Virus record (IMG/VR): IMGVR_UViG_3300044712_002690
Location: 64,001 to 128,000 of that record
Strand: one strand, 5' to 3'
Length of the DNA stretch: 64,000 bases
Source: a virus
This document shows positions 29,435 to 44,852 of this stretch, one piece after another; the stretch's first letter is position 1; every line of letters begins with the position of its first letter. The notes below the pieces were generated by a model that made no database searches, had not been told where the DNA came from, and saw only the letters and a list, made by a program, of their open reading frames with translations. The position numbers and the translations under genes were made by a program.

Positions 29435-30172
29435 ATGTTCCCTATTAACAATAGTTTTTTTACATCGGAGATGTTTGAAAAGGGTGTAAGGTTAAGTAAA
29501 AGTTTTAACACTAGAACCCAAGATGAAACTTATGAATTATATGATCTAATTAAGGACGCAGTATTGTGTGCACAGAATCCACAAAATATGGATTCTGATA
29601 AAGCATTACAATTTGTTGTACAAGCATTTGATCCTTTAATTAGAAAAGTTGCAAGTAGGATTTATTTACATGTAAAGGATTTTGAGGAGTTTGAAGATAC
29701 TCTTCAAGAAGCCTACGTGACCTTTATAAATCTTGTTTATGGTTATGATCCTAATATCGCTACCTTTCCTTATTATATTAGGAATATGCTACCACGACAA
29801 GTTAAAGCATGGAGTCAGAAAACCAGAAAACGTACATCTACTCCTGTGGATGTAGTTATTGTAGACAATGCTTTAGTTGACCCAGCATATGATAATAAAG
29901 ACAGCGTCTATGAAAGATATAATAGTATGATTTTCCAAAAAGAATATGAAGACTTTATCCTTGAACGAGCAGAAAAGAAAGCTAAAAGTGATACTGTAAA
30001 AGAAGTATGCTATAATTATTTCTTAGGTGCAAAAAGTTGTAGTACAATAGCTATGGATCTTGGTATCAGCTATCACGCGGTTTATGAAGTTTTGCAAAGG
30101 GTGAAAAGAGAATTACAAGATTTTATGCAAGATAGTTGTTTTGCAGACCCAGAATTTTGGAAACACATTTAA
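29435..30172 (+). CDS. Sigma-70-family RNA polymerase sigma factor
   Basis: FDPLIRKVA...EDTLQEAY...YDP...FPYYI; C-terminal HTH STIAMDLGISYHAVYEVLQRVK. Confidence 0.8.
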   Translation: MFPINNSFFTSEMFEKGVRLSKSFNTRTQDETYELYDLIKDAVLCAQNPQNMDSDKALQFVVQAFDPLIRKVASRIYLHVKDFEEFEDTLQEAYVTFINLVYGYDPNIATFPYYIRNMLPRQVKAWSQKTRKRTSTPVDVVIVDNALVDPAYDNKDSVYERYNSMIFQKEYEDFILERAEKKAKSDTVKEVCYNYFLGAKSCSTIAMDLGISYHAVYEVLQRVKRELQDFMQDSCFADPEFWKHI

Positions 30173-30916
30173 ATGATAATTTATAGAATTATAAATACTT
30201 TAAATAATAAATGTTACATAGGTAAAACTACTTATTCTTTATCTGTGCGAAAATCTAATCATATTTCTGATGCAAAAAAAGGAAGTAATCAATATATTCA
30301 TAAAGCAATTAGAAAATATGGTGAAGAACATTTTACTTTTGAAGTATTAGATGATTCTTGTGAGACAGAAACTGAATTAAATGAACATGAAATGTTTTGG
30401 ATTAAATTTTTGCATACAAAAGCACCTGATGGATATAATTTAACTGAGGGTGGCGAAGGTGCAAGAGGTTTAATTCATAGTGAAGAACGACGTCAACGAA
30501 ATCGAGAAGTTAACTTAGGAAAAGTAATGCCAGAAGAGGTTAAAGAAAAAATTCGACAAGCAAATATTGGTAGAACTTTTTCTGAGGAATGGAGAAGTAA
30601 AATAAGCGAAGCAAACAGAAGAAGGGGTTGTCTTAGTCAAGAAACAAAAGATAAAATCTCAAAATCTAAAAAAGGTAAAAAACAATCTGAAGAAGAAAAA
30701 CATATGAGATCAATTTCAAGAAAAACCTATTTAGCTTCACTTACGGAAGAAGAAAGAAAAAATTTAGGAAAATCCTTAAGGGGAAGACCCTCATGGAATA
30801 AAGGTCTTACTAAAGAAACTAGTGAGTCTGTAAAAAAGATTAGTGATAAAGCGAAAGTAAGACCTAGAAAGAAAAAGCAACAAATGTTGGTTATATCAAA
30901 TGATCAAATCTCTTAA
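30173..30916 (+). CDS. GIY-YIG homing endonuclease with NUMOD3 repeats
   Basis: IIYRIIN...CYIGKT; GYNLTEGGEG; HSEE/MPEEVKEKI/FSEEWRSKI/LSQETKDKI repeats. Confidence 0.92.
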   Translation: MIIYRIINTLNNKCYIGKTTYSLSVRKSNHISDAKKGSNQYIHKAIRKYGEEHFTFEVLDDSCETETELNEHEMFWIKFLHTKAPDGYNLTEGGEGARGLIHSEERRQRNREVNLGKVMPEEVKEKIRQANIGRTFSEEWRSKISEANRRRGCLSQETKDKISKSKKGKKQSEEEKHMRSISRKTYLASLTEEERKNLGKSLRGRPSWNKGLTKETSESVKKISDKAKVRPRKKKQQMLVISNDQIS

Positions 30917-36135: not shown

Positions 36136-36210
36136 TGGGAGAAGTACGAGAATCGAACTCGTATCTTTGGAACCACAATCCAAGGTAATAGCCGTTATAC
36201 GAACTTCTCC
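36136..36210 (-). tRNA. trnH: tRNA-His(GUG) with encoded G-1
   Basis: Cloverleaf; loop UUGUGGU; G-1:C73. Confidence 0.9.
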
Positions 36211-36221
36211 ATAAAAATAAA

Positions 36222-36287
36222 TTTGAGATTGAGAGACTCGAACTCTCGGAAAAGGGTTATGAGCCCTAATCCCCACCTGGATCTCAA
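36222..36287 (-). ncRNA. D-arm-deficient tRNA-like element with CAU anticodon
   Basis: Acceptor UUGAGAU/AUCUCAA, AGGG-CUCAUAA-CCCU, T arm GAGAG-UUCGAGU-CUCUC, only about 12 nt in the D region. Confidence 0.65.
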
Positions 36288-36351
36288 CAGGATACTAGCT
36301 ATCACTAGTAACCTTTTTTGTTCATCGACCGGAGAGAATATGATGTTTATG

Positions 36352-36423
36352 TCGGGGTGGTCGGGATCGAACCGACGACTTTCTGCTCCCAAAGCAGACA
36401 CGCTACCGCTGCGCCACACCCCG
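36352..36423 (-). tRNA. trnP: tRNA-Pro(UGG)
   Basis: UCUGC-UUUGGGA-GCAGA; C1:G72; A73. Confidence 0.93.
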
Positions 36424-36427
36424 TATT

Positions 36428-36676
36428 TTACTTTAAACAATTCTTGCAGGAGTAAGTACCCTTAGCAACCCATTTCAAGTCTTTAAAAAAGACATTAGCA
36501 CCACATCTATAACAAATTCCTTTTCCTTCTTCAATTAAAACTCGTATTGAATCCCCTTGTTTCCAGAATTTACAATTTTGTATTGCTTCTTCAGTCATTG
36601 GGATCGGTTTTGCATAATTTTGTGGATGACCACAAACAAACATTGCATGAAACCAACAATTATTACAATTATCCAC
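36428..36676 (-). CDS. Cys-rich hypothetical protein
   Basis: Several CxxC motifs. Confidence 0.55.
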   Translation of the reverse strand: MDNCNNCWFHAMFVCGHPQNYAKPIPMTEEAIQNCKFWKQGDSIRVLIEEGKGICYRCGANVFFKDLKWVAKGTYSCKNCLK

Positions 36677-36957
36677 TAGCTTGCTCTTTTAACTCTATAT
36701 TGAATAGCGTCAGAAATATCTCTTAGTTTAGCTGGTTTAGAAACCTTACAATCATCATACTCGCAATTGAAACAATCATCCTCACATACACCTAAATGTA
36801 TTCTAATACAACTATTACACACAGTAAAACTATATTTATTCTCTTGTGTGATAGGAGTGTTACAATATTTACACACATTCCTTTTATTTTTAATTTTATG
36901 AATAGAATTATACTTCCTTTGATATTCTCTTTTTTGCTCAATATCCTTAAAGGGCAT
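36676..36957 (-). CDS. Cys-rich hypothetical protein
   Basis: AAGGA RBS; CxxC motifs. Confidence 0.6.
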   Translation of the reverse strand: MPFKDIEQKREYQRKYNSIHKIKNKRNVCKYCNTPITQENKYSFTVCNSCIRIHLGVCEDDCFNCEYDDCKVSKPAKLRDISDAIQYRVKRAS

Positions 36958-36990
36958 ATTTTATATCCTTATTGATATTAAAATAAAATG

Positions 36991-37063
36991 AGCTCCCGAG
37001 AGGAATTGAACCCCCAACCTACTGATTACAAATCAGTTGCTCTACCGATTGAGCTACAGGAGC
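36991..37063 (-). tRNA. trnT: tRNA-Thr(UGU)
   Basis: ACUGA-UUUGUAA-UCAGU; full cloverleaf. Confidence 0.93.
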
Positions 37064-37231
37064 AAGTAAGTTATGTAGTTGGTTTAAGAGCCAACTTCAT
37101 TTCTTTCATTTTCTTAGTCTTTTCTTTCCAGCTTAGTGATTTCCAAATCTTTTTAAAAATCCTGTAGTTAATATCTTGTGAGGAAGATATTTTCCTACTA
37201 TACTTCTTAAGTACTTTAGCTGTTTTAGTAT

Positions 37232-37432
37232 TCATTTCATCTCCTTTTTCTTAATGTCTTTATATAAATATCTTTTTTTCATTAAACTTTTTATAATTTT
37301 GTCTGTTTCTTCTATTGTTAAATTAGCTAGTTTAGCAATATTATCGATATAACAAGGTTCACTGTTTTTCCATTTATTTACAATGTTATAAACATCTTGT
37401 TCTATTTTAGAAGAGAACTTTTTATAGCTCAC
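37232..37432 (-). CDS. Small winged-HTH-like protein
   Basis: IDNIAKLANLTIEETDKIIKSLMKKRYL. Confidence 0.5.
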   Translation of the reverse strand: MSYKKFSSKIEQDVYNIVNKWKNSEPCYIDNIAKLANLTIEETDKIIKSLMKKRYLYKDIKKKEMK

Positions 37433-37450
37433 AGCATTCCTTTTATAAGA

Positions 37451-37526
37451 TAGTATACAGGCGGCTTATATTTACAACCTTTGCTCTTACCTTCCGGAAC
37501 GGTTACGCGGACGGCCTGTATACTAA
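37451..37526 (-). ncRNA. Unidentified structured RNA closed by a 12-bp stem
   Basis: UAGUAUACAGGC/GCCUGUAUACUA enclosing a GC-rich interior with small hairpins. Confidence 0.5.
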
Positions 37527-37527
37527 T

Positions 37528-37615
37528 TGGCGGAGGCCGGATTCGAACCGGCGTTACAAGTCTTTCGACGCCGAGGGTTATGAGCCCTCCGAGAAGCCAA
37601 CTCCTCTACTCCGCT
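37528..37615 (-). tRNA. trnfM: Initiator-type tRNA-Met(CAU) with 20-nt variable arm
   Basis: A1xC72 mismatch, A11:U24, GAGGG-CUCAUAA-CCCUC (three G:C pairs), variable GGCGUCGAAAGACUUGUAAC. Confidence 0.85.
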
Positions 37616-37653
37616 CTATATTATAAAATATACCAATTGGTTATATTTTTCTT

Positions 37654-37839
37654 CTAAAACTTTTTAATAATAGCAATAGTACTATCTGAAATCTCTTTCT
37701 TATCTAAATCAATTGAAAGATTAGCTTCAATTGAAATATCATTACTTATATTTACCAATCCATCTTTAGGCTGATTACTTTGCAGAGATGGATCCTTTCT
37801 TAGATTTTTACCGTTTACTGTTTTAAGCCACTCGAACAT
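37654..37839 (-). CDS. Hypothetical protein
   Basis: AAGG RBS; ORF between tRNAs. Confidence 0.5.
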   Translation of the reverse strand: MFEWLKTVNGKNLRKDPSLQSNQPKDGLVNISNDISIEANLSIDLDKKEISDSTIAIIKKF

Positions 37840-37853
37840 ATACCTTACCTATG

Positions 37854-37932
37854 CAGGGGTGACACGAGTCGAACGTGCATTGCCGAAGCACGGTTTTGGA
37901 GACCGCTGGGTTAGCCATTACCCTACACCCCT
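37854..37932 (-). tRNA. trnW: tRNA-Trp(CCA) with 11-nt variable arm
   Basis: GCGGU-CUCCAAA-ACCGU; G73; variable GCUUCGGCAAU. Confidence 0.9.
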
Positions 37933-37942
37933 AAATATTCTG

Positions 37943-38021
37943 AGCAAGTGATGGGACTCGAACCCACAATGCTTTCGCATCAGTTTGGAAGACTGACAGC
38001 TTACCTTTAGCTTACACTTGC
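37943..38021 (-). tRNA. trnG: tRNA-Gly(UCC) with 12-nt variable arm
   Basis: UCAGU-CUUCCAA-ACUGA; U73; variable UGCGAAAGCAUU. Confidence 0.9.
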
Positions 38022-38546
38022 TTATTGAATCATTCTTACTTGAGTATAGTCACTAAGTAAGAATCTTCTCTGCTTATTTACTTCTTGAATTGCCTCACAA
38101 ATATTATCATACGATTCAGTTACTAACGTATTAAATTCTTCTTCATTAAATTCTACAATAGTGCGATCTCTTTCAAGACACTCGTATAAGTCTTCTACAT
38201 TTTTATAAAATTTTCTATAAAGAAGAGTATATACTTTTTTTATATCCTTAACATAAAATCTAATAAATGAATCTTGTGTAATGAATCCAATATAAACAGA
38301 GTTATTATCTATTCTTTCCCAAGTACGAAATTTTGTTTGATCTGACCTAACACTAAGTTCTTCAATAAGATCATCTATATTAGCTTTTATATAGCCAGTA
38401 CCATAATGAAAGTTATTTAAATCATATGTACTAGCAGTATCATTACCAATAATAGGATTGTAACCTTCAGGTGCATTTAACCAAATACCATCATGAAGAA
38501 ATAAGTGAAATGAACGTAACATCCATTTGTATAATTCTTCTTTCAT
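38022..38546 (-). CDS. Hypothetical protein
   Basis: AAGGAG RBS; 174 aa. Confidence 0.7.
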   Translation of the reverse strand: MKEELYKWMLRSFHLFLHDGIWLNAPEGYNPIIGNDTASTYDLNNFHYGTGYIKANIDDLIEELSVRSDQTKFRTWERIDNNSVYIGFITQDSFIRFYVKDIKKVYTLLYRKFYKNVEDLYECLERDRTIVEFNEEEFNTLVTESYDNICEAIQEVNKQRRFLLSDYTQVRMIQ

Positions 38547-38604
38547 ATAATTTCTCCTTTCTAATTTATACTTGTAATATATAAAGAAAAGAGAATAAAA
38601 CTAA

Positions 38605-39120
38605 CTAAAGCATTGCTCCAACTTGTGGACTTGTTGTTACTCCTTGTTGTAAGAACGTTGCTGATGCCTGTTGTACAGCTTGTAACCAAGCTTCTTTAGT
38701 AATTAATGAACGAAGTATAGGAACTATATTCACTAAATTTGGATCTTGACTTCCTTGATTATATATTTCAATTCCTATCCAATCCATTGCTGGAATCGAA
38801 TCTGTTTGTGTTTTAGCTTCCTGAGGAACCATACCTTTTTGAGATATAAAATCGTCAATAGTTAATTTTGCTATATTAAGAAGCGTAGAATTAACTAATG
38901 TATTAAGATCTTGCTCAGGATTCTGTTGTATAGATGCAATTAACTTACTAATTTCACTATCAAGAATCTCTTGAGTTAAATCAGCATATTTAACTACTAT
39001 ATGAGCAAAAACAGTTTTATAAAATCTTTCAAGACAATCAGCTCTTCTTGTATCCATATATACTTCTCCTAGATAGATAATATATAAAGATAACATGAAG
39101 AGTGATTTTTTAAGTTTCAC
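38605..39120 (-). CDS. Hypothetical protein (likely start MDTRR at 39057)
   Basis: AGGAG RBS before the internal ATG. Confidence 0.65.
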   Translation of the reverse strand: MKLKKSLFMLSLYIIYLGEVYMDTRRADCLERFYKTVFAHIVVKYADLTQEILDSEISKLIASIQQNPEQDLNTLVNSTLLNIAKLTIDDFISQKGMVPQEAKTQTDSIPAMDWIGIEIYNQGSQDPNLVNIVPILRSLITKEAWLQAVQQASATFLQQGVTTSPQVGAML

Positions 39121-39133
39121 TGCTTCAAATAAA

Positions 39134-39361
39134 TTAAGCAGCTACTACTACATCTTTCTCCATACGATTAACACCAATAACTTCAAACTTCTCATCTTCA
39201 TTCCACTTAGCTTTAACAGCAGAAGCAGCAGCACCTACATCAGTAGCAACAGCTAGTTCACAGCGGTTGATAACTTTTCCTGTAGTGCGCGAGGTACGTT
39301 TAATGTCTACATGGTACAGGTTCATTATAAAGCTCCTTTCATTTAATTTATTTTGATACAT
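39134..39361 (-). CDS. Hypothetical protein
   Basis: AAGGAG RBS before MNLYHV. Confidence 0.6.
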   Translation of the reverse strand: MYQNKLNERSFIMNLYHVDIKRTSRTTGKVINRCELAVATDVGAAASAVKAKWNEDEKFEVIGVNRMEKDVVVAA

Positions 39362-39400
39362 TTAATATAAGAAACCTTTACTAATAAAGTAACTAGTATG

Positions 39401-39480
39401 TACCACGAGAGGGACTCGAACCCTCACCAATTAAGACTAGTTCCTAAGACTAGCGCGTCTACCAGTTCCGCCATCGTGGC
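39401..39480 (-). tRNA. trnL: tRNA-Leu(UAG)
   Basis: CUAGU-CUUAGGA-ACUAG; class II; A73. Confidence 0.92.
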
Positions 39481-39483
39481 ATG

Positions 39484-39556
39484 TGCTCAAGGTCGGGATC
39501 GAACCGACTACACACGGATTTTCAGTCCGTTGCTCTACCTTCTGAGCTACCTGAGC
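39484..39556 (-). tRNA. trnF: tRNA-Phe(GAA)
   Basis: ACGGA-CUGAAAA-UCCGU. Confidence 0.94.
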
Positions 39557-39561
39557 TCATG

Positions 39562-39635
39562 TGGATCGTCCCTGACTCGAACAGGGGGCCTAATGATTAT
39601 GAGTCATTTGCTCTAACCAACTGAGCTAACGATCC
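39562..39635 (-). tRNA. tRNA with CAU anticodon (elongator Met or Ile2)
   Basis: AAUGA-CUCAUAA-UCAUU; paired G1:C72; Met versus lysidine-Ile cannot be resolved by eye. Confidence 0.88.
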
Positions 39636-39641
39636 AAGAAT

Positions 39642-39716
39642 TGGGACTTCTCCGACTTGAACGGAGGACCTATTGCCTATCAAGCAATTGCTCTAACCAA
39701 ACTGAGCTAAAGTCCC
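39642..39716 (-). tRNA. trnI: tRNA-Ile(GAU)
   Basis: AUUGC-UUGAUAG-GCAAU. Confidence 0.92.
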
Positions 39717-39734
39717 TGTTTTGAAAGAAAAATA

Positions 39735-39908
39735 AACTAAAGGTGTGTTGCTACACCAAAGGAGACACATTGTTTATCCTAGCCAACACTTCCTGCGGGT
39801 CTCACAGGTCTTAGTTTTTACACTTGGTCAGTTTCGGAATGATCTCCACTCATTAAAGTATACAGTTTCCCAAGCTGCTGGCTACCTCTAAGCCCACTGC
39901 CTTTAGTT
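39735..39908 (-). ncRNA. Unidentified ~175-nt multi-stem RNA with two potential pseudoknots
   Basis: Closing stem AACUAAAGG/CCUUUAGUU and four internal stems whose G:U pairs favour the - strand. Confidence 0.6.
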
Positions 39909-39914
39909 ATTCTG

Positions 39915-39987
39915 TGGACCTGATCGGTTACGATCCGACTACCTCCTGCTTGCAGGGCAGGCGCTCTCCCAATTGAGCTACAGGCCC
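39915..39987 (-). tRNA. trnA: tRNA-Ala(UGC), atypical C33 and T loop
   Basis: G3:U70; CCUGC-CCUGCAA-GCAGG; T loop AUCGUAA. Confidence 0.88.
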
Positions 39988-39994
39988 TAATTAG

Positions 39995-40231
39995 TTAATG
40001 TTTTAGCTTTTCACCTTCTTTAATCATTTCTTCTATAACATTGTCAATTAAAGTAAAAAGTTCGTCACTATTTCTATCTAGTAAAGCAGCTACACCACTA
40101 ATTATTTTTATTTGAGTACTTATTTCTTCATCTTCGTCTTCACTTACAGGAAGATACATTGAAATTGTATTATCAGTACGAAGAACAAGTGCTGCATCAC
40201 CATCTTTTAATGTAATTTTTGTTTTACCCAT
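39995..40231 (-). CDS. Hypothetical protein
   Basis: AAGGAAG RBS; ORF between tRNAs. Confidence 0.6.
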   Translation of the reverse strand: MGKTKITLKDGDAALVLRTDNTISMYLPVSEDEDEEISTQIKIISGVAALLDRNSDELFTLIDNVIEEMIKEGEKLKH

Positions 40232-40256
40232 AAATGTCTTCCTTATGTTTGGTATT

Positions 40257-40330
40257 TGGATCGGGTGAGGGTCGAACTCACGACTCCTGCATTAAAAGTG
40301 CAGTGCTACTACCAACTGAGCTACCGATCC
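40257..40330 (-). tRNA. trnK: tRNA-Lys(UUU)
   Basis: CUGCA-CUUUUAA-UGCAG. Confidence 0.93.
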
Positions 40331-40391
40331 TTTCGTTTATTACTTTCCTTATCACTTTCCTTCATAAGGAAACCTCCTTTAAATTAAAATG

Positions 40392-40467
40392 TGTTCCTGA
40401 AGGGACTCGAACCCCTAACCTTCTGATCCGTAATCAGAAACTCTAAATCCAATTGAGCTACAGGAAC
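40392..40467 (-). tRNA. trnR: tRNA-Arg(ACG)
   Basis: UCUGA-UUACGGA-UCAGA. Confidence 0.92.
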
Positions 40468-40475
40468 TTAAAATG

Positions 40476-40548
40476 CGTCCCAGGAGAGGATCGAACTCCC
40501 GACAAACGGATTAGAAATCCGTTGCTCTTCCACCTGAGCTACTGGGAC
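40476..40548 (-). tRNA. trnR: tRNA-Arg(UCU)
   Basis: ACGGA-UUUCUAA-UCCGU. Confidence 0.93.
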
Positions 40549-40605
40549 AAAAAGCGTGTTGATATACTCAACACTAAAACCAACGATTTCCATCCAAATC
40601 GCTTG

Positions 40606-40677
40606 CTCTGGAGGCAAGGATCGAACTTGCGACCAATCGGTTAACAGCCGATGGCTCTACCGCTGAGCTACTCCAGA
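40606..40677 (-). tRNA. trnN: tRNA-Asn(GUU)
   Basis: AUCGG-CUGUUAA-CCGAU; G73. Confidence 0.94.
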
Positions 40678-40682
40678 ATATA

Positions 40683-41177
40683 TTAGATAAAAGGAGTTAA
40701 ATGCAATAACCTTTTAATTTTCCATTTGATATTTTTTATTAAGTAAATACTATATCTTACTATTCTTTTAACAGTCCATTTGTTTTTTATTTCAATTTCA
40801 TATTGACCATATTTAGTTTTAGATACTATTTGAAATGCATTGAAAAATTGATCGTTTGATCCCCATGGTACACCACAGTCATATTCTGTTCCATCTTTAT
40901 ATTCAATTGAAATACCTGTTATGTCTGAATGGTTAGTAACTCTTTTATATAAAGATACATATTCATCATTCCAATTTTTATATTGTAATGGTTTAAGGTC
41001 TTTAAATATGACATAAATCCACTCTGCACCATCACGTTCATCACCTTGTGTTACATTACAACACGAATAGTGTTTGTGAACTTTTCCAATATACCAATTT
41101 GAAATATGTTTAATATCTATTTTAGCAGTATCACAATTTTCAAAGATTAATACTACATTTTTCACTTCTTTAAACAT
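40683..41177 (-). CDS. Conserved phage hypothetical protein
   Basis: 164 aa ORF with AAGGA RBS. Confidence 0.7.
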   Translation of the reverse strand: MFKEVKNVVLIFENCDTAKIDIKHISNWYIGKVHKHYSCCNVTQGDERDGAEWIYVIFKDLKPLQYKNWNDEYVSLYKRVTNHSDITGISIEYKDGTEYDCGVPWGSNDQFFNAFQIVSKTKYGQYEIEIKNKWTVKRIVRYSIYLIKNIKWKIKRLLHLTPFI

Positions 41178-41198
41178 GTTCTATTATATCCTTGTATG

Positions 41199-41273
41199 CG
41201 AGGCTGAAGGGACTCGAACCCTCGACCTTCTGCGTGACAGGCAGACGCTCTAACCAAACTGAGCTACAACCCC
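41199..41273 (-). tRNA. trnD: tRNA-Asp(GUC)
   Basis: UCUGC-CUGUCAC-GCAGA; G73. Confidence 0.94.
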
Positions 41274-41279
41274 GTTTAT

Positions 41280-41552
41280 TTAAGAATCAGCAATCTCACT
41301 AGTAAAATAACGATTTTGTGAAACTGTAAGTGCTGTACAAAGACTACATTGCCAACATTTATGTTCCACCATCCATTTAGCATACTCTTTTAATTCTACA
41401 CCTTCAATTACTATCGAAACAAGAAGTTCTCCATTATCTTTTATTTCAATAGTAGGAAAATCTTCTTTCAAGTCAGCTAATACTTTAGCTTTAAGAGCAG
41501 TAGCACTATCCTTATCAGCACAAACTTTATCAAAAGCAAGAAGATCTTTCAT
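41280..41552 (-). CDS. Hypothetical protein
   Basis: AAGGAG RBS. Confidence 0.65.
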   Translation of the reverse strand: MKDLLAFDKVCADKDSATALKAKVLADLKEDFPTIEIKDNGELLVSIVIEGVELKEYAKWMVEHKCWQCSLCTALTVSQNRYFTSEIADS

Positions 41553-41573
41553 ACATTACTCCTTTAAAAATTG

Positions 41574-42058
41574 TGCCCAAGGCCGGAGTCGAACCGGCAC
41601 GGAGAAATCTCCATGGGATTTTACTTACCACTATAGCTTTCGCTACCAGTATTGCGCGTCTATTAAACTTTTTACTACTTATTTATTTAATGTGGTTCGT
41701 AGCCCCCACTCTTAATAGAATACTGTTTGTAGTCTGGACTTTGTCTTCACCATATTAAAGTACCACGACTGCCATATCACTGACCTCTATGTAGGCCACA
41801 GTCCTTATGACTTTAATTTAGGTGGTGCCCGTCAAGTCTCTACACGTTCCAAGCAGGTGAGGTATCAGATTATTTCTAATCTTCTCATTCTCCTTTTGCT
41901 TTCCTTACTTGGTTTCGCTCGGCGTTGGGTCATATAGATTCTAATTAAGATCTCTCCATATAGGCCGTTCACCGAATTTGAGCACTTACTACTAAAAAGT
42001 TTCCTTTTTAGCGACCCTTTAATGAGTCCCAGGTGTCTACCAATTCCACCACTTGGGC
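41574..42058 (-). tRNA. trnL: tRNA-Leu(UAA), split by a group I intron (exons 42025-42058 and 41574-41623)
   Basis: Joined exons give UGGGA-CU^UAAAA-UCCCA, class II variable arm, A73. Confidence 0.9.
41624..42024 (-). mobile_element. ORF-less group I intron, 401 nt
   Basis: P1 GACU/GGUC with U:G splice site; P2 CUAAAAAG-GAAA-CUUUUUAG; CUCAAAUUCGGUGAA, GUAGAGACUUGACGGG and AAGACAAAGUCC core motifs; terminal G. Confidence 0.9.
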
Positions 42059-42060
42059 AA

Positions 42061-42141
42061 AATAAAGTAAGGTCTAGCAAGTAGAAGTAGGGAGGTAACA
42101 TTTCAAGCGTTAACCTACTCCTATCCGTACCTTACTTTATT
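42061..42141 (-). ncRNA. Y-RNA-like element Y1 (downstream of Ro60)
   Basis: 13-bp terminal stem AAUAAAGUAAGGU/ACCUUACUUUAUU, GGUACGGA motif, 10-bp stem UAGGAGUAGG/CCUACUUCUA. Confidence 0.75.
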
Positions 42142-42153
42142 AGAATTCAGAAA

Positions 42154-43767
42154 TTAAATGCCCCCTTTAGCAAATTCAGAAATGATTGATGGTGCCGCTG
42201 AATCGAAGCCGCAAACATCAAGCATTCCAGGGTCTTTAGGATCTGCAATTGTAAATTGAGTTCCTACCATACCTACAACAGCTAATTTAGCATCTTTCAC
42301 ATGAGCGTTTCTATACTTTTTGAGTGCTTGGCTTGGTGCAATTCTTCCGGCCCAAGTCTCATTATCAGTATAGATTGTAAAAATATCAAAGTCTAATTTT
42401 TCTCTAAGAGCCCATTCCATCGGCAATGCACAATCTGTTCCTTCGAATGGAAGACCTGAAATTTTTCTAATAGTTTCATTCAATGACATTCTAGGAGTAA
42501 TGTCAAGGTGCATGAATCTACTAGAGAATCCCATAATCTCATAGTTCTTTTCTGTACGAGCAGTTACCATTGCCATACAAGCAGATGCTTCACGGCAAGT
42601 AACAATACCATACGCTCCAGAAATATAAGCTCCTCCCATTGAACCAGATACGTCAAGTGCAAGTAAGAATCTTTTATCTGTTGGTTCAATATTCTTGAAA
42701 CTAAGATAAAAAGCTTCTTCAAGTGCATCACGTACTTTACCAACAGGCTTCCAAGTAAGACTACCTTTGATTCCATGACCCATTGAATATGTTTTTAATG
42801 CAATGAGAATATTCAATGGATGCAGTCTACTTTTAGAAATATAATCCTGATTAGTTAATTTTCCAACCACACGTTCAATTTCATTAAACTTACCAGGACC
42901 AATTACTCCGATTGCAGTAAGTCTGTTAAGACTTCTCATTAATGCTGTAAGTGGAATATCATCAAGAGCTTCTGTCCAAATACTAACATTATTCTTCAGT
43001 TCAGTAGGCCAAGCATCTTGAGGAATTTTGTATTCCTTAATAAGCTTTTTAGCTTTTGCTACATCAGCTGTTTTAAGTTCATCGAAAGCATTAATAAGTT
43101 TCAATGCTTCTGATTTTTCTCCTTTAACAGCATACTTAAAAAGCTCATTATGAGCATCGGACACTGGTTTTACGTGTGCAGAACGAAGAACATCTCGATG
43201 TGTCCACTGATTTCCTGTTCCTTCAACAGTACGTCCTTGATATTTAACTAGTTGATATTCAAGTTTAGAAGGTTCCATTGCATACCAATTAGAAATAGCT
43301 TTACGTACTGACCTTCCCCAACTTCTCATTGTATCTACATAGTGAGTAAACATGAAAAGATGAGTACCTGTACGACAAATCTTAGGCATAGCCTTTGAGA
43401 TTTCAGTTTTGAAAGAACTATCTTTACAATTAGTAATAAGAGCTGCTAAAAGGAAAATAGCTTGATCATTTTTAGCTGCTCTACCTGAATCAGAAATTTC
43501 TACAATAGTTTCAAGTACACGTTTAGGGTCTTCATCTATACAAGCTAAGCAATTTGAGATGTTTAGCTTAGTAAGATCATTTTGAGTGACATAGTATGTT
43601 CCGCCTTCAGACCCAAGCACAAGGAAGCGTTGGAGCATCTTCCACTTATCTAGTACGAATGTGTACCCACCTGCATTATTCTTTGCCATTTCCTTTTCAC
43701 GACCAGGAATAGGCTGAGATTGAGGTGTTTGTTTAGAATCTTGAAAAGAACTGTAATTGACAGCCAT
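42154..43767 (-). CDS. rsr: Ro60 / TROVE-domain RNA-binding protein (Rsr-like)
   Basis: NNAGGY...LQRFLVLGSEGGTYY, YQGR...WTHRDVLR, HPL..L.AL..Y..G, vWA MIDAS LALDVSGSM, GTDC, YTDNETW; start MAVNYS after GAAGGAGG. Confidence 0.95.
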   Translation of the reverse strand: MAVNYSSFQDSKQTPQSQPIPGREKEMAKNNAGGYTFVLDKWKMLQRFLVLGSEGGTYYVTQNDLTKLNISNCLACIDEDPKRVLETIVEISDSGRAAKNDQAIFLLAALITNCKDSSFKTEISKAMPKICRTGTHLFMFTHYVDTMRSWGRSVRKAISNWYAMEPSKLEYQLVKYQGRTVEGTGNQWTHRDVLRSAHVKPVSDAHNELFKYAVKGEKSEALKLINAFDELKTADVAKAKKLIKEYKIPQDAWPTELKNNVSIWTEALDDIPLTALMRSLNRLTAIGVIGPGKFNEIERVVGKLTNQDYISKSRLHPLNILIALKTYSMGHGIKGSLTWKPVGKVRDALEEAFYLSFKNIEPTDKRFLLALDVSGSMGGAYISGAYGIVTCREASACMAMVTARTEKNYEIMGFSSRFMHLDITPRMSLNETIRKISGLPFEGTDCALPMEWALREKLDFDIFTIYTDNETWAGRIAPSQALKKYRNAHVKDAKLAVVGMVGTQFTIADPKDPGMLDVCGFDSAAPSIISEFAKGGI

Positions 43768-43785
43768 TTTGCTGCCTCCTTCATA

Positions 43786-43858
43786 TAAGATTAGGTCAAG
43801 TAGTTGGAATAGGGGAAACATTCTGAAGTTAACCTACCCCATCCGTACCTAAAACCTT
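43786..43858 (-). ncRNA. Y-RNA-like element Y2 (upstream of the Ro60 RBS)
   Basis: UUAGGUACGG...UUGACCUAA terminal helix with bulged A; UGGGGUAGG/CCUAUUCCA stem. Confidence 0.8.
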
Positions 43859-43860
43859 TA

Positions 43861-43985
43861 GGAACAAGGCAGGATTTGAACCTGCGACCAGCCCATTATA
43901 AGTGGTAACCTTTTCTCTTCCGTACCTTTCAGTCAATAGTTTGAAAAAAGGGTTTTAGCTGCTCTACCGCTGAGCTACTTGTTCC
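43861..43985 (-). ncRNA. tRNA-Y chimera Y3: tRNA-Ile(UAU)-like body with a 52-nt Y module inserted at 28/29
   Basis: Acceptor, D and T arms intact; insert 43906-43957 holds UUGACU-GAAA-GGUACGG; removing it gives GCCCA-CUUAUAA-UGGGC. Confidence 0.8.
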
Positions 43986-43988
43986 TTG

Positions 43989-44114
43989 TCCTAAGGGGAG
44001 GACTTGAACCTCCGACCCGTAGTGTGACCTGTTAACCTTAACCTGCCGTACCTTTCGGTCAAATAATCGGAAAAGGTATTTTAACTACTGCTCTACCAAC
44101 TGAGCTACCTTAGG
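43989..44114 (-). ncRNA. tRNA-Y chimera Y4: tRNA scaffold with a 60-nt Y-containing insert in place of the anticodon loop
   Basis: CCUAAGG/CCUUAGG acceptor, canonical D and T arms, GUAGU/ACUAC stem enclosing UUGACC-GAAA-GGUACGG. Confidence 0.8.
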
Positions 44115-44123
44115 ATATAAATA

Positions 44124-44191
44124 TAATTGGTCAAATGAGTTGCGATAGGATGCTAACACCATAAGTTAACCTATCACATCCGTACCAATTA
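44124..44191 (-). ncRNA. Y-RNA-like element Y5
   Basis: UAAUUGGUACGG...UUGACCAAUUA; UGUGAUAGG/CCUAUCGCA stem; UUAAC/GUUAG apical helix. Confidence 0.8.
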
Positions 44192-44194
44192 ATT

Positions 44195-44266
44195 CTGCGG
44201 GACTAGGACTCGAACCTAGACAACAGATTCCAAGGACCTGTGTCCTACCAATTAGACCATCCCGCA
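44195..44266 (-). tRNA. trnQ: tRNA-Gln(UUG), atypical C33
   Basis: U1:A72, G73; CAGGU-CCUUGGA-AUCUG. Confidence 0.88.
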
Positions 44267-44345
44267 ATAAGAAATACAATTATATCAGGTACTTTTTGAC
44301 TTCTACTTATAATATAAGATAAGTAAAAGAAGAAAGTAACTAATG

Positions 44346-44432
44346 CGGGCAGAGTAGGATTTGAACCCACGGAACCTTTAGATCCTCTAGTTTTCAAGAC
44401 TAGCGCCATAAACCAGACTCGGCCATCTGCCC
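44346..44432 (-). tRNA. trnS: tRNA-Ser(UGA)
   Basis: CUAGU-CUUGAAA-ACUAG; long variable arm; G73. Confidence 0.93.
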
Positions 44433-44436
44433 GATG

Positions 44437-44523
44437 CGGAGAGGAAGAGATTTGAACTCTTATCGGCCTGCCGGCCTACGCAGGTTTAGCAAACCTGTCA
44501 CTTACCAGTTAGTGTACCTCTCC
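44437..44523 (-). tRNA. trnS: tRNA-Ser(GCU)
   Basis: CAGGU-UUGCUAA-ACCUG; long variable arm; G73. Confidence 0.92.
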
Positions 44524-44528
44524 TAATG

Positions 44529-44602
44529 CATCGGGGACGGGACTTGAACCCGCAAATACCAACGTGAAAGGCTGGTGACTTTACCAATTTGTCTACCCCG
44601 AC
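44529..44602 (-). tRNA. trnE: tRNA-Glu(UUC)
   Basis: CCAGC-CUUUCAC-GUUGG. Confidence 0.92.
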
Positions 44603-44604
44603 AT

Positions 44605-44679
44605 TGGACCGTCAAGGAATTGAACCTTGCTGAAAAACTATCCTGTAAAAATAGCGCCTACCCAGCCGGCCCACGGTCC
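44605..44679 (-). tRNA. trnV: tRNA-Val(UAC), 8-nt variable region
   Basis: CUAUU-UUUACAG-GAUAG; GGACCGU/ACGGUCC. Confidence 0.82.
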
Positions 44680-44757
44680 ATAAAGCCTACTCTTTGTTTA
44701 TAGTGGCTGTTGGCAGCGTAATTCCACTACACGATTTAAAGCTAGTGCGTACTCATT

Positions 44758-44843
44758 TGGATGGGGAGGGATTCGAACCCCCAACGCTCAATCGAGTCCA
44801 GATTTACAGTCTGGTAGTGTCCACCAGTCTCACAAGCCCATCC
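44758..44843 (-). tRNA. trnY: tRNA-Tyr(GUA)
   Basis: CCAGA-CUGUAAA-UCUGG; class II; A73. Confidence 0.93.
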
Positions 44844-44852
44844 ATTTTCGTT

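What the first reader, a model, noticed from the sequence alone, without database searches (positions are those of the whole stretch)
42061..44191. Phage Ro60 flanked by an array of five Y-RNA-like modules
Seen: five copies share GGU-A-CGG paired with UUG-AC(C/U) (UAG-ACC in Y1), then a 8-10-bp stem whose sequence differs in every copy while pairing is kept (for example UAGGAGUAGG/CCUACUUCUA, UGGGGUAGG/CCUAUUCCA, UGUGAUAGG/CCUAUCGCA). One copy lies 12 nt after the Ro60 stop and four lie upstream. Established: vertebrate Y RNAs bind Ro60 through GGU-C(bulge)-CGA/UUG-ACU, and bacterial rsr genes neighbour Y RNAs. Inference: a phage Ro60 RNP system with an expanded, diversified Y-RNA repertoire using a bulged A.
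Basis: partly seen in the sequence, partly recalled or inferred. Interest (0 to 1): 0.9.

Follow-up and report, generated by a model that had tools for sequence, protein, structure and literature searches.

The report
Phage Ro60 with tRNA-grafted Y RNAs
A large uncultured phage encodes the RNA-binding ring protein Ro60 with five partner "Y RNA" genes, two of which are whole tRNA shapes carrying the Ro60 docking helix on the anticodon arm, a design that recurs beside Ro60 in many phages and bacteria and that I could not find described.

Summary
A 538-aa Ro60 (TROVE + vWA; E about 1e-108 to solved Ro60s) lies on the minus strand. It sits inside the tRNA array of a 32% GC large phage. Five RNAs flank it. 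Each carries GGU-A-CGG paired with UUG-ACY, a copy-specific 8-10 bp stem, and AGGUUAMC.

Three of them (A, B, E) are stand-alone stem-bulge hairpins. Two (C, D) are complete tRNA cloverleaves with the same module, closed by a GAAA tetraloop, grafted into the anticodon arm. C also keeps an intact CU-UAU-AA loop.

A covariance model built from two sequences finds the hairpin type 54 times in 41 of 80 other viral Ro60 loci, always on Ro60's strand. In that alignment 92.5% of cells pair and 16 of 19 pairs covary. Relatives read GGGCCGAAG...GGGUUAUC, like metazoan Y RNAs and nematode sbRNAs, and some pass Rfam's sbRNA threshold.

The tRNA-grafted type recurs in about 20 viral loci and in many MAG loci. 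It is the unpermuted counterpart of YrlA.

Ro60 binding, RNA processing and function are all inferred. No RNA data exist for this stretch. This scan has noted related Ro60 and tRNA-mimic arrays on other DNA before.

The parts
42154..43770 (-). Ro60 gene (538 aa; TROVE ring plus vWA/MIDAS domain); RBS GGAGG 8 nt before the ATG at 43770
   Evidence: Pfam PF05731 and PF25045. PDB 9nen, 2nvo and 1yvp at E about 1e-108. The N-terminus MAxNYS is shared by 35 relatives.
42061..42141 (-). Y module A: stand-alone stem-bulge hairpin. It has a 13-bp basal stem, then GGU-A-CGG, the 10-bp stem UAGGAGUAGG/CCUACUUCUA, and AGGUUAAC. It is followed by a U-run and then, after 5 nt, by tRNA-Leu.
   Evidence: Fold -27.3 kcal/mol, z -4.4. 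R1 hit at 35.3 bits, E 2e-6.
43791..43852 (-). Y module B: stand-alone stem-bulge hairpin. It ends 17 nt before the Ro60 RBS.
   Evidence: Seed of model R1. Fold. The orthologous copy is L090:3412-3480.
43861..43984 (-). Chimera C: a full tRNA cloverleaf (7-bp acceptor stem, D arm, T arm). A 52-nt Y arm (43906-43957, capped helix UUGACU-GAAA-GGUACGG at 43920-43936) is inserted in the 5' strand of the anticodon stem between nt 28 and 29. An intact GCCCA / CU-UAU-AA / UGGGC anticodon arm remains.
   Evidence: R2 hit at 79.4 bits. Hidden anticodon arm found at null p 0.047. My own indexing. ARAGORN does not call it.
43989..44114 (-). Chimera D: a full tRNA cloverleaf whose 7-nt anticodon loop is replaced by 60 nt (44024-44083). 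The replacement holds UUGACC-GAAA-GGUACGG (44046-44062), a 9-position stem and AGGUUAAC. No anticodon loop is left.
   Evidence: Rfam tRNA at 52.4 bits with a 59-nt insert. Seed of R2. No hidden arm found.
44124..44191 (-). Y module E: stand-alone stem-bulge hairpin. It begins 2 nt after tRNA-Gln and ends 9 nt before chimera D.
   Evidence: Fold -21.9 kcal/mol, z -3.25, 0 of 200 shuffles as good. R1 hit at 48.9 bits, E 3e-10.
44194..44267 (-). tRNA-Gln(UUG), the upstream neighbour. Processing of its 3' end would set the 5' end of module E.
   Evidence: ARAGORN and Rfam. The processing role is inferred.
41573..42058 (-). tRNA-Leu(UAA) with a 401-nt intron, the downstream neighbour. RNase P cleavage at its 5' end would set the 3' limit of module A.
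   Evidence: ARAGORN -i. The processing role is inferred.

Best explanation
This is a phage Ro60 ribonucleoprotein locus with five Y-RNA genes of two architectures.

Shown from sequence and comparison:
- All five RNAs carry the family's Ro60-docking helix: a 5' strand GGU-A-CGG-A (a variant of GGGCCGAAG and of vertebrate GGUCCGA), a 3' strand UUG-ACY, one bulged base, a 5-6 nt loop on the opposite strand, a variable upper stem, and UUAUC/UUAAC.
- A, B and E are about 60-80-nt stem-bulge hairpins of the metazoan Y RNA / sbRNA type.
- C and D are tRNA cloverleaves with the same helix, capped by a GNRA loop, as an extension or branch of the anticodon arm. This is the circular permutation of YrlA, with true tRNA ends.

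Inferred:
- The genes are transcribed with the tRNA array and cut out by RNase P and 3' tRNA processing.
- Ro60 binds each helix on its outer surface.
- As in Deinococcus and Salmonella, the RNA tethers or gates Ro60. The tRNA body or anticodon-like loop would recruit a tRNA-handling partner such as PNPase, the phage's own RtcB ligase, or a host nuclease.
- The RNP would then serve surveillance or repair of tRNA and other RNA during infection.
- Module B, just before the Ro60 RBS, may also let Ro60 regulate its own mRNA.
For: - Ro60 identity.
- Five modules far above chance.
- Hairpin model R1 gives 57 hits in 42 sources. All 54 outside the window are on Ro60's strand, and 50 of them lie upstream within about 1 kb.
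- Covariation in that alignment: 92.5% paired against 62.9% in shuffles, 16 of 19 pairs with changes on both sides, and no more than 50% paired in the slid controls.
- UUAxC follows the upper stem in 47 of 47 distinct sequences. The bulge is A in 13, C in 21 and U in 11.
- Relatives exceed Rfam's gathering score for nematode sbRNA RF01656.
- The syntenic array in L090 (Ro60 68% identical) has covarying caps: ACA-GUAA-UGU and GCA-GAAA-UGC.
- Chimera model R2 finds long tRNA-like hits with capped motifs in about 20 viral loci and many MAG loci. In that alignment the Y-arm helices are 86-93% paired and 13 of 14 pairs covary.
- Within-unit acceptor stems are 7 of 7 paired in 24 of 24 units. The window's cross-unit pairing is 2 of 7.
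- The phage encodes RtcB.
- Literature: the GGUCCGA and GNCGAA motifs and the tether model (PMC4201824); the bulged helix and UUAUC motif of Y RNAs and sbRNAs (PMC4726728); a phage Ro60 that binds phage Yrl RNAs and host PNPase (PMC12135203).
Against: - There is no transcript, processing or binding datum.
- The window's own copies match no Rfam Y RNA family at E <= 10.
- The window motif departs from the bacterial GNCGAA at two positions.
- The alignments used for pair counts were fitted to the models.
- RtcB lies about 65 kb away, so linkage is weak.
- No promoter or terminator signal above chance was found within the stretch.
- Why a canonical anticodon loop is kept in C and in about a third of the chimeras is not explained by a pure tether role.
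Confidence: 0.75

Rival explanations
1. The Y arm in chimera C, and in other chimeras that keep an anticodon loop, is a new kind of tRNA intron. It would be cut out and the halves joined by RtcB. This would release a working tRNA (here tRNA-Ile(UAU) for the abundant AUA codon) and a small capped Y hairpin.
For: - Removing 43906-43957 restores a canonical 72-nt cloverleaf with a CU-UAU-AA loop.
- 13 of 37 long hits hide a canonical arm, against 1.35 expected.
- The phage's 23-tRNA set has no other UAU anticodon, while AUA makes up 30% of Ile codons.
- RtcB is encoded in the genome.
Against: - There is no bulge-helix-bulge motif and no group I core; the insert is only 52 nt.
- No splicing endonuclease was found in the genome.
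- D and many relatives have no anticodon loop at all.
- In the L090 phage, normal tRNA-Thr(UGU) and tRNA-Pro(UGG) exist beside chimeras showing those triplets.
- Chimera bodies resemble each other more than they resemble cognate tRNAs.
- One conserved scaffold carries UAU, GUU, UUU or UGA, and the UGA cases lack the long variable arm of tRNA-Ser.
Confidence: 0.1
2. The modules are mainly cis-acting elements of the operon: Ro60 autoregulatory operators, RNA-processing signals or terminators. They would not be stable trans-acting Y RNAs.
For: - B ends 17 nt before the Ro60 RBS, and a hairpin sits just upstream of Ro60 in most relatives.
- A has a long stem followed by a U-run directly after the stop codon.
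Against: - Five copies per locus is more than cis regulation needs.
- Some copies sit between tRNA genes, far from the mRNA.
- Two copies are built into complete tRNA folds with conserved elbow nucleotides.
- The same architecture defines stable Y RNAs in animals and bacteria (PMC4726728, PMC4201824).
- The terminator scan does not call A.
Confidence: 0.07
3. The C-D region encodes one ordinary permuted YrlA (43926-44045). It would run from D's GGUACGG through D's T arm and C's D arm to C's UUGACU.
For: Rfam YrlA matches exactly this span at 23.2 bits, E 0.084.
Against: - The score is far below the gathering score of 69.
- Chen et al. describe this as the tandem-tRNA artefact.
- D's 3' acceptor strand pairs only 2 of 7 with C's 5' strand, while each unit's own acceptor stem is 7 of 7.
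- GAAA caps close each helix locally.
- The outer halves of D and C would be left as orphans.
Confidence: 0.03

Closest known systems
YrlA (Rfam RF02553; Chen et al. 2014, PMC4201824; Wang et al. 2018, 10.1101/312249)
   Same: It is encoded next to Ro60, including in 22 phages. It combines a Ro60-binding helix with the GNCGAA-type 5' strand and a tRNA-like domain with D arm, T arm, acceptor stem and elbow nucleotides. The order of elements around the circle is identical to that in chimeras C and D.
   Different: YrlA is circularly permuted. Its T arm comes before its D arm, its acceptor stem is closed by a loop, and its RNA ends lie in the Ro60 helix. Here the D arm comes before the T arm, the 7-bp acceptor stem is open, and the Ro60 helix is closed by a GNRA loop. 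C also keeps an anticodon loop, which YrlA lacks. The Rfam model scores 23 bits against a threshold of 69, and only across the D/C junction. Actinophage loci (Catera, Sixama) have YrlA-type matches and no R1 hits.
Metazoan Y RNAs and nematode stem-bulge RNAs (Rfam RF00019, RF01656; Kowalski and Krude 2015, PMC4726728)
   Same: Modules A, B and E and their relatives share this plan: 5' and 3' ends paired, a lower stem with one bulged base on the 5' strand and a bulge on the other strand, a conserved upper stem, and UUAUC at the start of the loop. Relatives read GGGCCGAAG...GGGUUAUC against vertebrate GGUCCGA...GUUAUC (the human sequences are from my memory). Some pass the sbRNA gathering score.
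   Different: These RNAs are bacterial or phage-encoded and sit in a tRNA operon, so they are not pol III genes. They have no 3' oligo-U/La site. The window copies have a bulged A, CGG instead of CGA, and UUAAC, and they do not reach any Rfam score. The loops are short.
Thermus phage phiLo Ro60 with Yrl1 and Yrl2 (PMC12135203)
   Same: A phage Ro60 with several Y-like RNAs encoded just upstream. Binding to Ro60 and to host PNPase was shown in vitro.
   Different: The phiLo RNAs were picked by a CGAA motif in a large internal bulge, and no tRNA body is reported. The phiLo Ro60 is too distant to appear among PDB matches to this protein at E <= 1e-5.
Deinococcus radiodurans Yrn1
   Same: Both strands of the Ro60 helix are retained, as in metazoa. 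It has tRNA-like features, with the D-like arm before the T arm (PMC4201824).
   Different: In Yrn1 the Ro60 helix takes the place of the acceptor stem and carries the RNA ends. Here it sits on the anticodon arm and is capped.
b7a-tRNA (Burroughs and Aravind 2016, known to me only through 10.1101/312249)
   Same: [quoted passage not shown]
   Different: The paper is not held in the library. I cannot tell whether it carries a Ro60 helix on the anticodon arm, so overlap with the chimeras is possible.

Membership tests
Y RNA (Ro60-bound ncRNA, broad sense) | Encoded beside a Ro60 orthologue, on its strand (the bacterial and phage rule) | tested here: met
   All five modules lie within 1.7 kb of Ro60 on its strand. 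All 54 family members in other loci are on Ro60's strand.
Y RNA (Ro60-bound ncRNA, broad sense) | Conserved 5' strand motif: GGUCCGA (vertebrate) or GNCGAAN0-1G (bacterial) | tested here: inconclusive
   The window has GGUACGGA, which matches 5 of 7 positions of the vertebrate motif. The changes keep pairing (U-A in place of G-C; G-U in place of A-U). Members of the same model family read GGGCCGAAG, an exact match to the bacterial motif.
Y RNA (Ro60-bound ncRNA, broad sense) | Helix with a single bulged base on the 5' strand and a bulge or loop on the opposite strand | tested here: met
   A bulged A plus a 5-6-nt 3' loop in all five copies. This is conserved with covariation.
Y RNA (Ro60-bound ncRNA, broad sense) | Physical binding to Ro60 and Ro60-dependent stability | not testable with these tools
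   No RNA run holds the stretch. No RNA-protein modelling tool is available.
Rfam Y_RNA RF00019 / sbRNA RF01656 | Score at or above the gathering threshold | tested here: not met
   The window copies get no hit at E <= 10. Relatives score 38-45 bits against the RF01656 gathering score of 38 in 6 loci. No RF00019 hit was seen anywhere.
YrlA (RF02553) | Permuted order: T arm 5' of the D arm, closed acceptor-like hairpin, RNA ends in the Ro60 helix | tested here: not met
   The order is acceptor 5' strand, D arm, capped Y helix, T arm, acceptor 3' strand. Acceptor stems are 7 of 7 paired within each unit. The YrlA model scores 23 bits against 69.
Canonical decoding tRNA | Cloverleaf with a continuous 5-bp anticodon stem and a 7-nt loop | tested here: not met
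   In D the loop is replaced by 60 nt. In C the stem is interrupted by 52 nt. ARAGORN calls neither. Acceptor, D and T arms, U8, A14, G18G19 and UUCAA are all present.
Known tRNA introns (group I; bulge-helix-bulge) | A group I core, or a BHB motif together with a splicing endonuclease | tested here: not met
   The insert is 52-60 nt and forms a three-way or two-way junction without BHB. PF01974 is absent from the genome record.

The most novel reading that the evidence does not exclude
The tRNA-Y chimeras are the unpermuted, tRNA-ended form of YrlA and close to the ancestral Y RNA. They would be matured like tRNAs. They would hold Ro60 a few helical turns from a genuine anticodon loop whose triplet varies freely on a conserved scaffold (UAU, GUU, UUU, UGA). 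In that position they would work as Ro60-tethered baits or sensors for anticodon-targeting nucleases or for repair by RtcB. Permuted YrlA, and the hairpin Y RNAs with UUAUC (including the metazoan ones), would derive from them.
Probability: 0.2. Interest if true: 0.9.

Novelty: new variant of a known kind. Interest (0 to 1): 0.72.

Why it matters
Y RNAs are proposed to descend from tRNAs, but until now only circularly permuted (YrlA) or loosely tRNA-like (Yrn1) forms were described.

- A widespread class with true tRNA order and ends, a capped Ro60 helix on the anticodon arm, and often an intact anticodon loop gives the tRNA-origin and dimeric-tRNA models concrete intermediates to test.
- It also predicts that RNase P, CCA addition, and perhaps synthetases or anticodon nucleases act on Ro60-bound RNAs.
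- The hairpin class shows that the metazoan layout, including the UUAUC motif so far tied to DNA replication in animals, is conserved beside bacterial and phage Ro60. This argues that UUAUC is an ancient part of the Ro60 RNP.
- Published YrlA lists may include tandem chimeras read in the wrong phase.

Tried and rejected
Relatives were fetched with the search for related loci on an alignment instead.
- A single-protein scan of viral contigs found nothing.
- A DNA search of GenBank phages found nothing.
- An exact 17-mer scan for the capped helix gave 5 hits, all in GC-rich coding sequence with no tRNA or Ro60 nearby, so these are chance matches.
- The looser 15-base pattern gave 82 hits. Only one lay beside a distant Ro60 relative (L055), so it was not used.
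- MAFFT alignments of many copies mis-register the 3' strands. I therefore built both models from two consistent sequences each.
- Brute-force deletion followed by ARAGORN was far too permissive. I replaced it with a strict anticodon-arm test with shuffles.
- No RNA holder is listed for the stretch; only two rhizosphere DNA runs hold it.
- The promoter and terminator scan was at chance level.
- Rnl2-type ligase, CCA-adding enzyme and tRNA splicing endonuclease were not found in the 76%-complete record.
- Three papers are not held: Sim et al. 2020, Sim and Wolin 2018, and Burroughs and Aravind 2016. Prior description there cannot be excluded.
- An inner 4-bp hairpin on the UAxC of the loop motif is only weakly supported: 15 of 47 against 5.6 expected.
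Full report
**Setting.** The window is bases 64001-128000 of a 178,984-base IMG/VR virus record. The record is 32.3% GC, estimated 76% complete, and labelled provirus. It encodes a phage replication module: DNA polymerase, clamp, UvsX-like recombinase and DnaB-like helicase. It also has a sigma factor and a GIY-YIG homing endonuclease. All 22 tRNA genes that ARAGORN finds lie on the minus strand between 36 and 45 kb of the window. The only public runs that hold the stretch are two rhizosphere DNA metagenomes.

**The protein.** The minus-strand ORF 42154-43770 (538 aa) has a TROVE domain (E 9e-36) and the Ro60 vWA domain (E 1e-65). It matches the solved Ro60 chains 9nen, 2nvo (D. radiodurans Rsr) and 1yvp (Xenopus Ro) at E about 1e-108 over its full length. 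The start at 43770 follows a GGAGG site and gives the N-terminus MAxNYS shared by 35 relatives. The longer ORF from 43821 would run through module B. The closest relatives are metagenomic, at most 68% identical. Actinophage Ro-like proteins are about 42-44% identical.

**The observation.** GGTACGG occurs six times in the window against 0.63 expected, and five of these lie on the minus strand between 42125 and 44186. All five AGGTTAMC sites of the window lie 14-15 nt downstream of those five copies. Read on the minus strand, each copy has this layout:
- GGU, a bulged A, CGG, one or two unpaired bases, and the 5' strand of an 8-10 bp stem that ends in AGG, followed by UUAAC or UUACC.
- On the other side, the complementary stem strand, a 5-6 nt loop (ACUAC-like), then UUG and ACY.

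The stems differ between copies but are self-complementary. Cognate strand pairs fold at -11.9 kcal/mol on average against -6.3 for non-cognate pairs, and the cognate assignment is the single best of 120.

**Two architectures.**
- A (42061-42141), B (43791-43852) and E (44124-44191) are hairpins whose two ends form the GGU/ACC end of the helix. That helix is extended by 3-10 further copy-specific pairs.
- C (43861-43984) and D (43989-44114) have the reverse topology. UUGACY and GGUACGG are joined by a GAAA tetraloop, and the variable stem opens into a complete tRNA body.
- That body has a 7-bp acceptor stem, U8, a GCUC/GAGC D stem with A14 and G18G19, a 5-nt variable loop, and a T arm with UUCAA.
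- Rfam's tRNA model scores D at 52.4 bits with a 59-nt insert in place of the anticodon loop. ARAGORN calls neither C nor D.
- In D the 60 nt between the anticodon stem strands GUAGU and ACUAC contain no anticodon loop.
- In C, removing 43906-43957 leaves a canonical 72-nt cloverleaf with stem GCCCA/UGGGC and loop CU-UAU-AA. The 52-nt Y arm is therefore a branch on the 5' strand of the anticodon stem between nt 28 and 29.

**The YrlA match is an artefact.** Rfam's YrlA model matches 43926-44045 at 23.2 bits (threshold 69). It uses D's T arm and C's D arm. Chen et al. warn about exactly this tandem-tRNA artefact. D's 3' acceptor strand pairs only 2 of 7 with C's 5' strand, while both units pair 7 of 7 internally.

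**Relatives of the hairpin type.**
- An alignment of 36 Ro60 proteins retrieved 80 viral loci.
- The closest, L090 (68% identical Ro60), has the same layout: hairpin, chimera, hairpin, chimera, hairpin, Ro60, hairpin. Its stem sequences differ, and its caps read ACA-GUAA-UGU and GCA-GAAA-UGC in place of ACC-GAAA-GGU.
- Covariance model R1, built from only B and its L090 orthologue, found 57 matches in 42 sources.
- All 54 matches outside the window are on Ro60's strand. Fifty lie upstream of it, mostly within 1 kb.
- On the resulting alignment 92.5% of cells pair, against 62.9% in shuffles and at most 50% in slid controls. Sixteen of 19 pairs change on both sides, in 270 cells. The alignment is fitted to the model, which favours pairing. 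The slid controls and the strand bias do not depend on that.
- The family consensus is: a variable basal stem; GG(G/U); a bulged C, A or U; CG(G/A)A; a variable stem ending in GGG; then UUAUC (30), UUACC (12), UUAAC (4) or UUAUU (1) in all 47 distinct sequences.

**Likeness to animal Y RNAs.** This is the layout described for vertebrate Y RNAs and nematode sbRNAs: a lower stem with one bulged cytidine and a bulge on the other strand, an upper stem, and a UUAUC motif at the start of the loop (PMC4726728). The vertebrate 5' motif is GGUCCGA and the bacterial one is GNCGAAN0-1G (PMC4201824). Several relatives exceed Rfam's gathering score for the nematode sbRNA family RF01656 (38-45 bits). The window's own copies reach no Rfam family at E <= 10.

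**Relatives of the chimera type.**
- Model R2, built from D and one L090 chimera, finds normal tRNAs. It also finds many hits of 98-180 nt next to Ro60 in about 20 of the 80 viral loci.
- Inspection shows the capped helix and UUAUC in most of the top hits (for example CUUGCCC-loop-GGGCCGA). The caps vary, from triloops and GNRA tetraloops to longer hairpins.
- In the R2 alignment the Y-arm helices are 86% and 93% paired, and 13 of 14 pairs change on both sides.
- Both RNA types also occur beside Ro60 in 80 loci from GTDB genomes (MAGs of Verrucomicrobiota, Chloroflexota, Armatimonadota and Myxococcota, some with dense tRNA arrays that suggest prophage or phage contigs). All are on Ro60's strand.
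- No YrlA match reaches the gathering score in 38 such viral and MAG loci.
- Two actinophage loci (Catera, Sixama) show YrlA-type matches and no R1 hit.
- The element order in Rfam's YrlA consensus is the same as in the chimeras, read from the cap round to the acceptor. The chimeras are therefore the unpermuted counterpart of YrlA, which the literature describes as a circularly permuted tRNA mimic with a closed acceptor stem and no anticodon loop (10.1101/312249).

**Anticodon display.**
- A strict test required a 5-bp stem, possibly split by the insert, a 7-nt loop, U33 and R37. It finds a hidden anticodon arm in 13 of 37 distinct long hits against 1.35 expected. Most are split after nt 27-29 and have CU-NNN-AA loops.
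- These do not look like working tRNAs in disguise.
  - The L090 phage has normal tRNA-Thr(UGU) and tRNA-Pro(UGG) besides chimeras showing those triplets.
  - Chimera bodies resemble one another (0.68-0.71 identity) more than they resemble cognate tRNAs.
  - One scaffold (GC | UAAAAC...GGUUA | CCA, loop, UGGGC) carries UAU in the window and GUU, UUU or UGA in Chloroflexia loci. The UGA cases lack the long arm of tRNA-Ser.
- The window phage has no other UAU anticodon, although AUA makes up 30% of its Ile codons. I therefore keep the intron reading as a minor rival.
- No BHB motif, group I core or splicing endonuclease supports that reading.

**Mechanism.** The following is shown: gene identity, RNA architecture, conservation, covariation and synteny. 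The rest is inferred.
- The RNAs are made with the tRNA array. E starts 2 nt after tRNA-Gln and ends 9 nt before D. D and C are 4 nt apart. A is followed after 5 nt by tRNA-Leu. tRNA end-processing would therefore release all of them.
- Ro60 docks on the bulged helix, as shown for Xenopus, Deinococcus, Salmonella and phage phiLo RNAs (PMC4201824, PMC12135203).
- The tRNA body or loop would engage a tRNA-handling partner.
- The phage encodes RtcB at bases 173356-174375 of the record. This is the ligase that accompanies rsr and Y RNAs in bacterial RNA-repair operons. It points to surveillance or repair of tRNA and other RNA during infection.
- B's position before the RBS suggests possible autoregulation.

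**Novelty.** Phage Ro60 with Y RNAs is known (22 phages in PMC4201824; phiLo). In the papers I could search and read, I found no description of tRNA-ordered chimeras with a capped Ro60 helix on the anticodon arm. I also found no description of UUAUC-bearing, sbRNA-like Y RNAs beside bacterial or phage Ro60. Three relevant papers are not held, and b7a-tRNA may overlap with the chimeras.

This scan has reported related arrays of tRNA-mimic RNAs beside Ro60-like genes on other DNA. I did not test those notes.

In tandem chimeras of other loci the acceptor strands of neighbouring units are often mutually complementary (mean 5.4 of 7). This is the kind of dimeric precursor that the Sim and Wolin model invokes for the origin of YrlA.

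Noticed in passing
window 41573-42058 (-): tRNA-Leu(UAA) is interrupted by a 401-nt intron after U33. ARAGORN -i restores an 85-nt tRNA. Rfam's group I intron model gave no hit at E <= 10 on this stretch, so the intron class is unverified.
   Followed up: partly
G000:C1:173356-174375 (-), outside the window: The phage encodes an RtcB RNA ligase (216 bits), about 65 kb from Ro60. No Rnl2-type ligase, CCA-adding enzyme or tRNA splicing endonuclease was found in the held 76% of the genome.
   Followed up: partly
window 36137-44844 (-): The tRNA set is close to a minimal complete decoding set, with one U34 tRNA per four-codon box. It lacks only Cys and a standard AUA reader. AUA is 22 per 1000 codons. 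The second tRNA(CAU) at 39561-39635 might be an Ile2 tRNA.
   Followed up: partly
L091:6273-6621 and L171:4483-4904: tmRNA genes lie a few hundred bases to about 1 kb downstream of Ro60 in a 59%-identical viral relative and in Gordonia phage Sixama. Ro60, tRNA arrays and tmRNA tend to cluster in phages.
   Followed up: no
L092:1828-1943: A wcaG RNA motif (Rfam RF01761, 56 bits, above its gathering score) lies upstream of the Ro60 gene of a 296-kb viral contig.
   Followed up: no
L203, L187, L110, L107, L108, L210, L204, L175 (tandem chimeras): Neighbouring chimera units have near-identical acceptor stems. [quoted passage not shown]
   Followed up: partly
L091:3291-3399: This is a capped Y module (UUUGACCU, a 9-nt loop, GGUACGG, then UUAUC) whose flanks are not a recognisable tRNA. 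It ends in a strong terminator hairpin just before Ro60, and may be a third architecture.
   Followed up: no
window 30173-30916 (+) and 29435-30172 (+): A GIY-YIG homing endonuclease gene sits directly after a sigma-factor-like gene.
   Followed up: no
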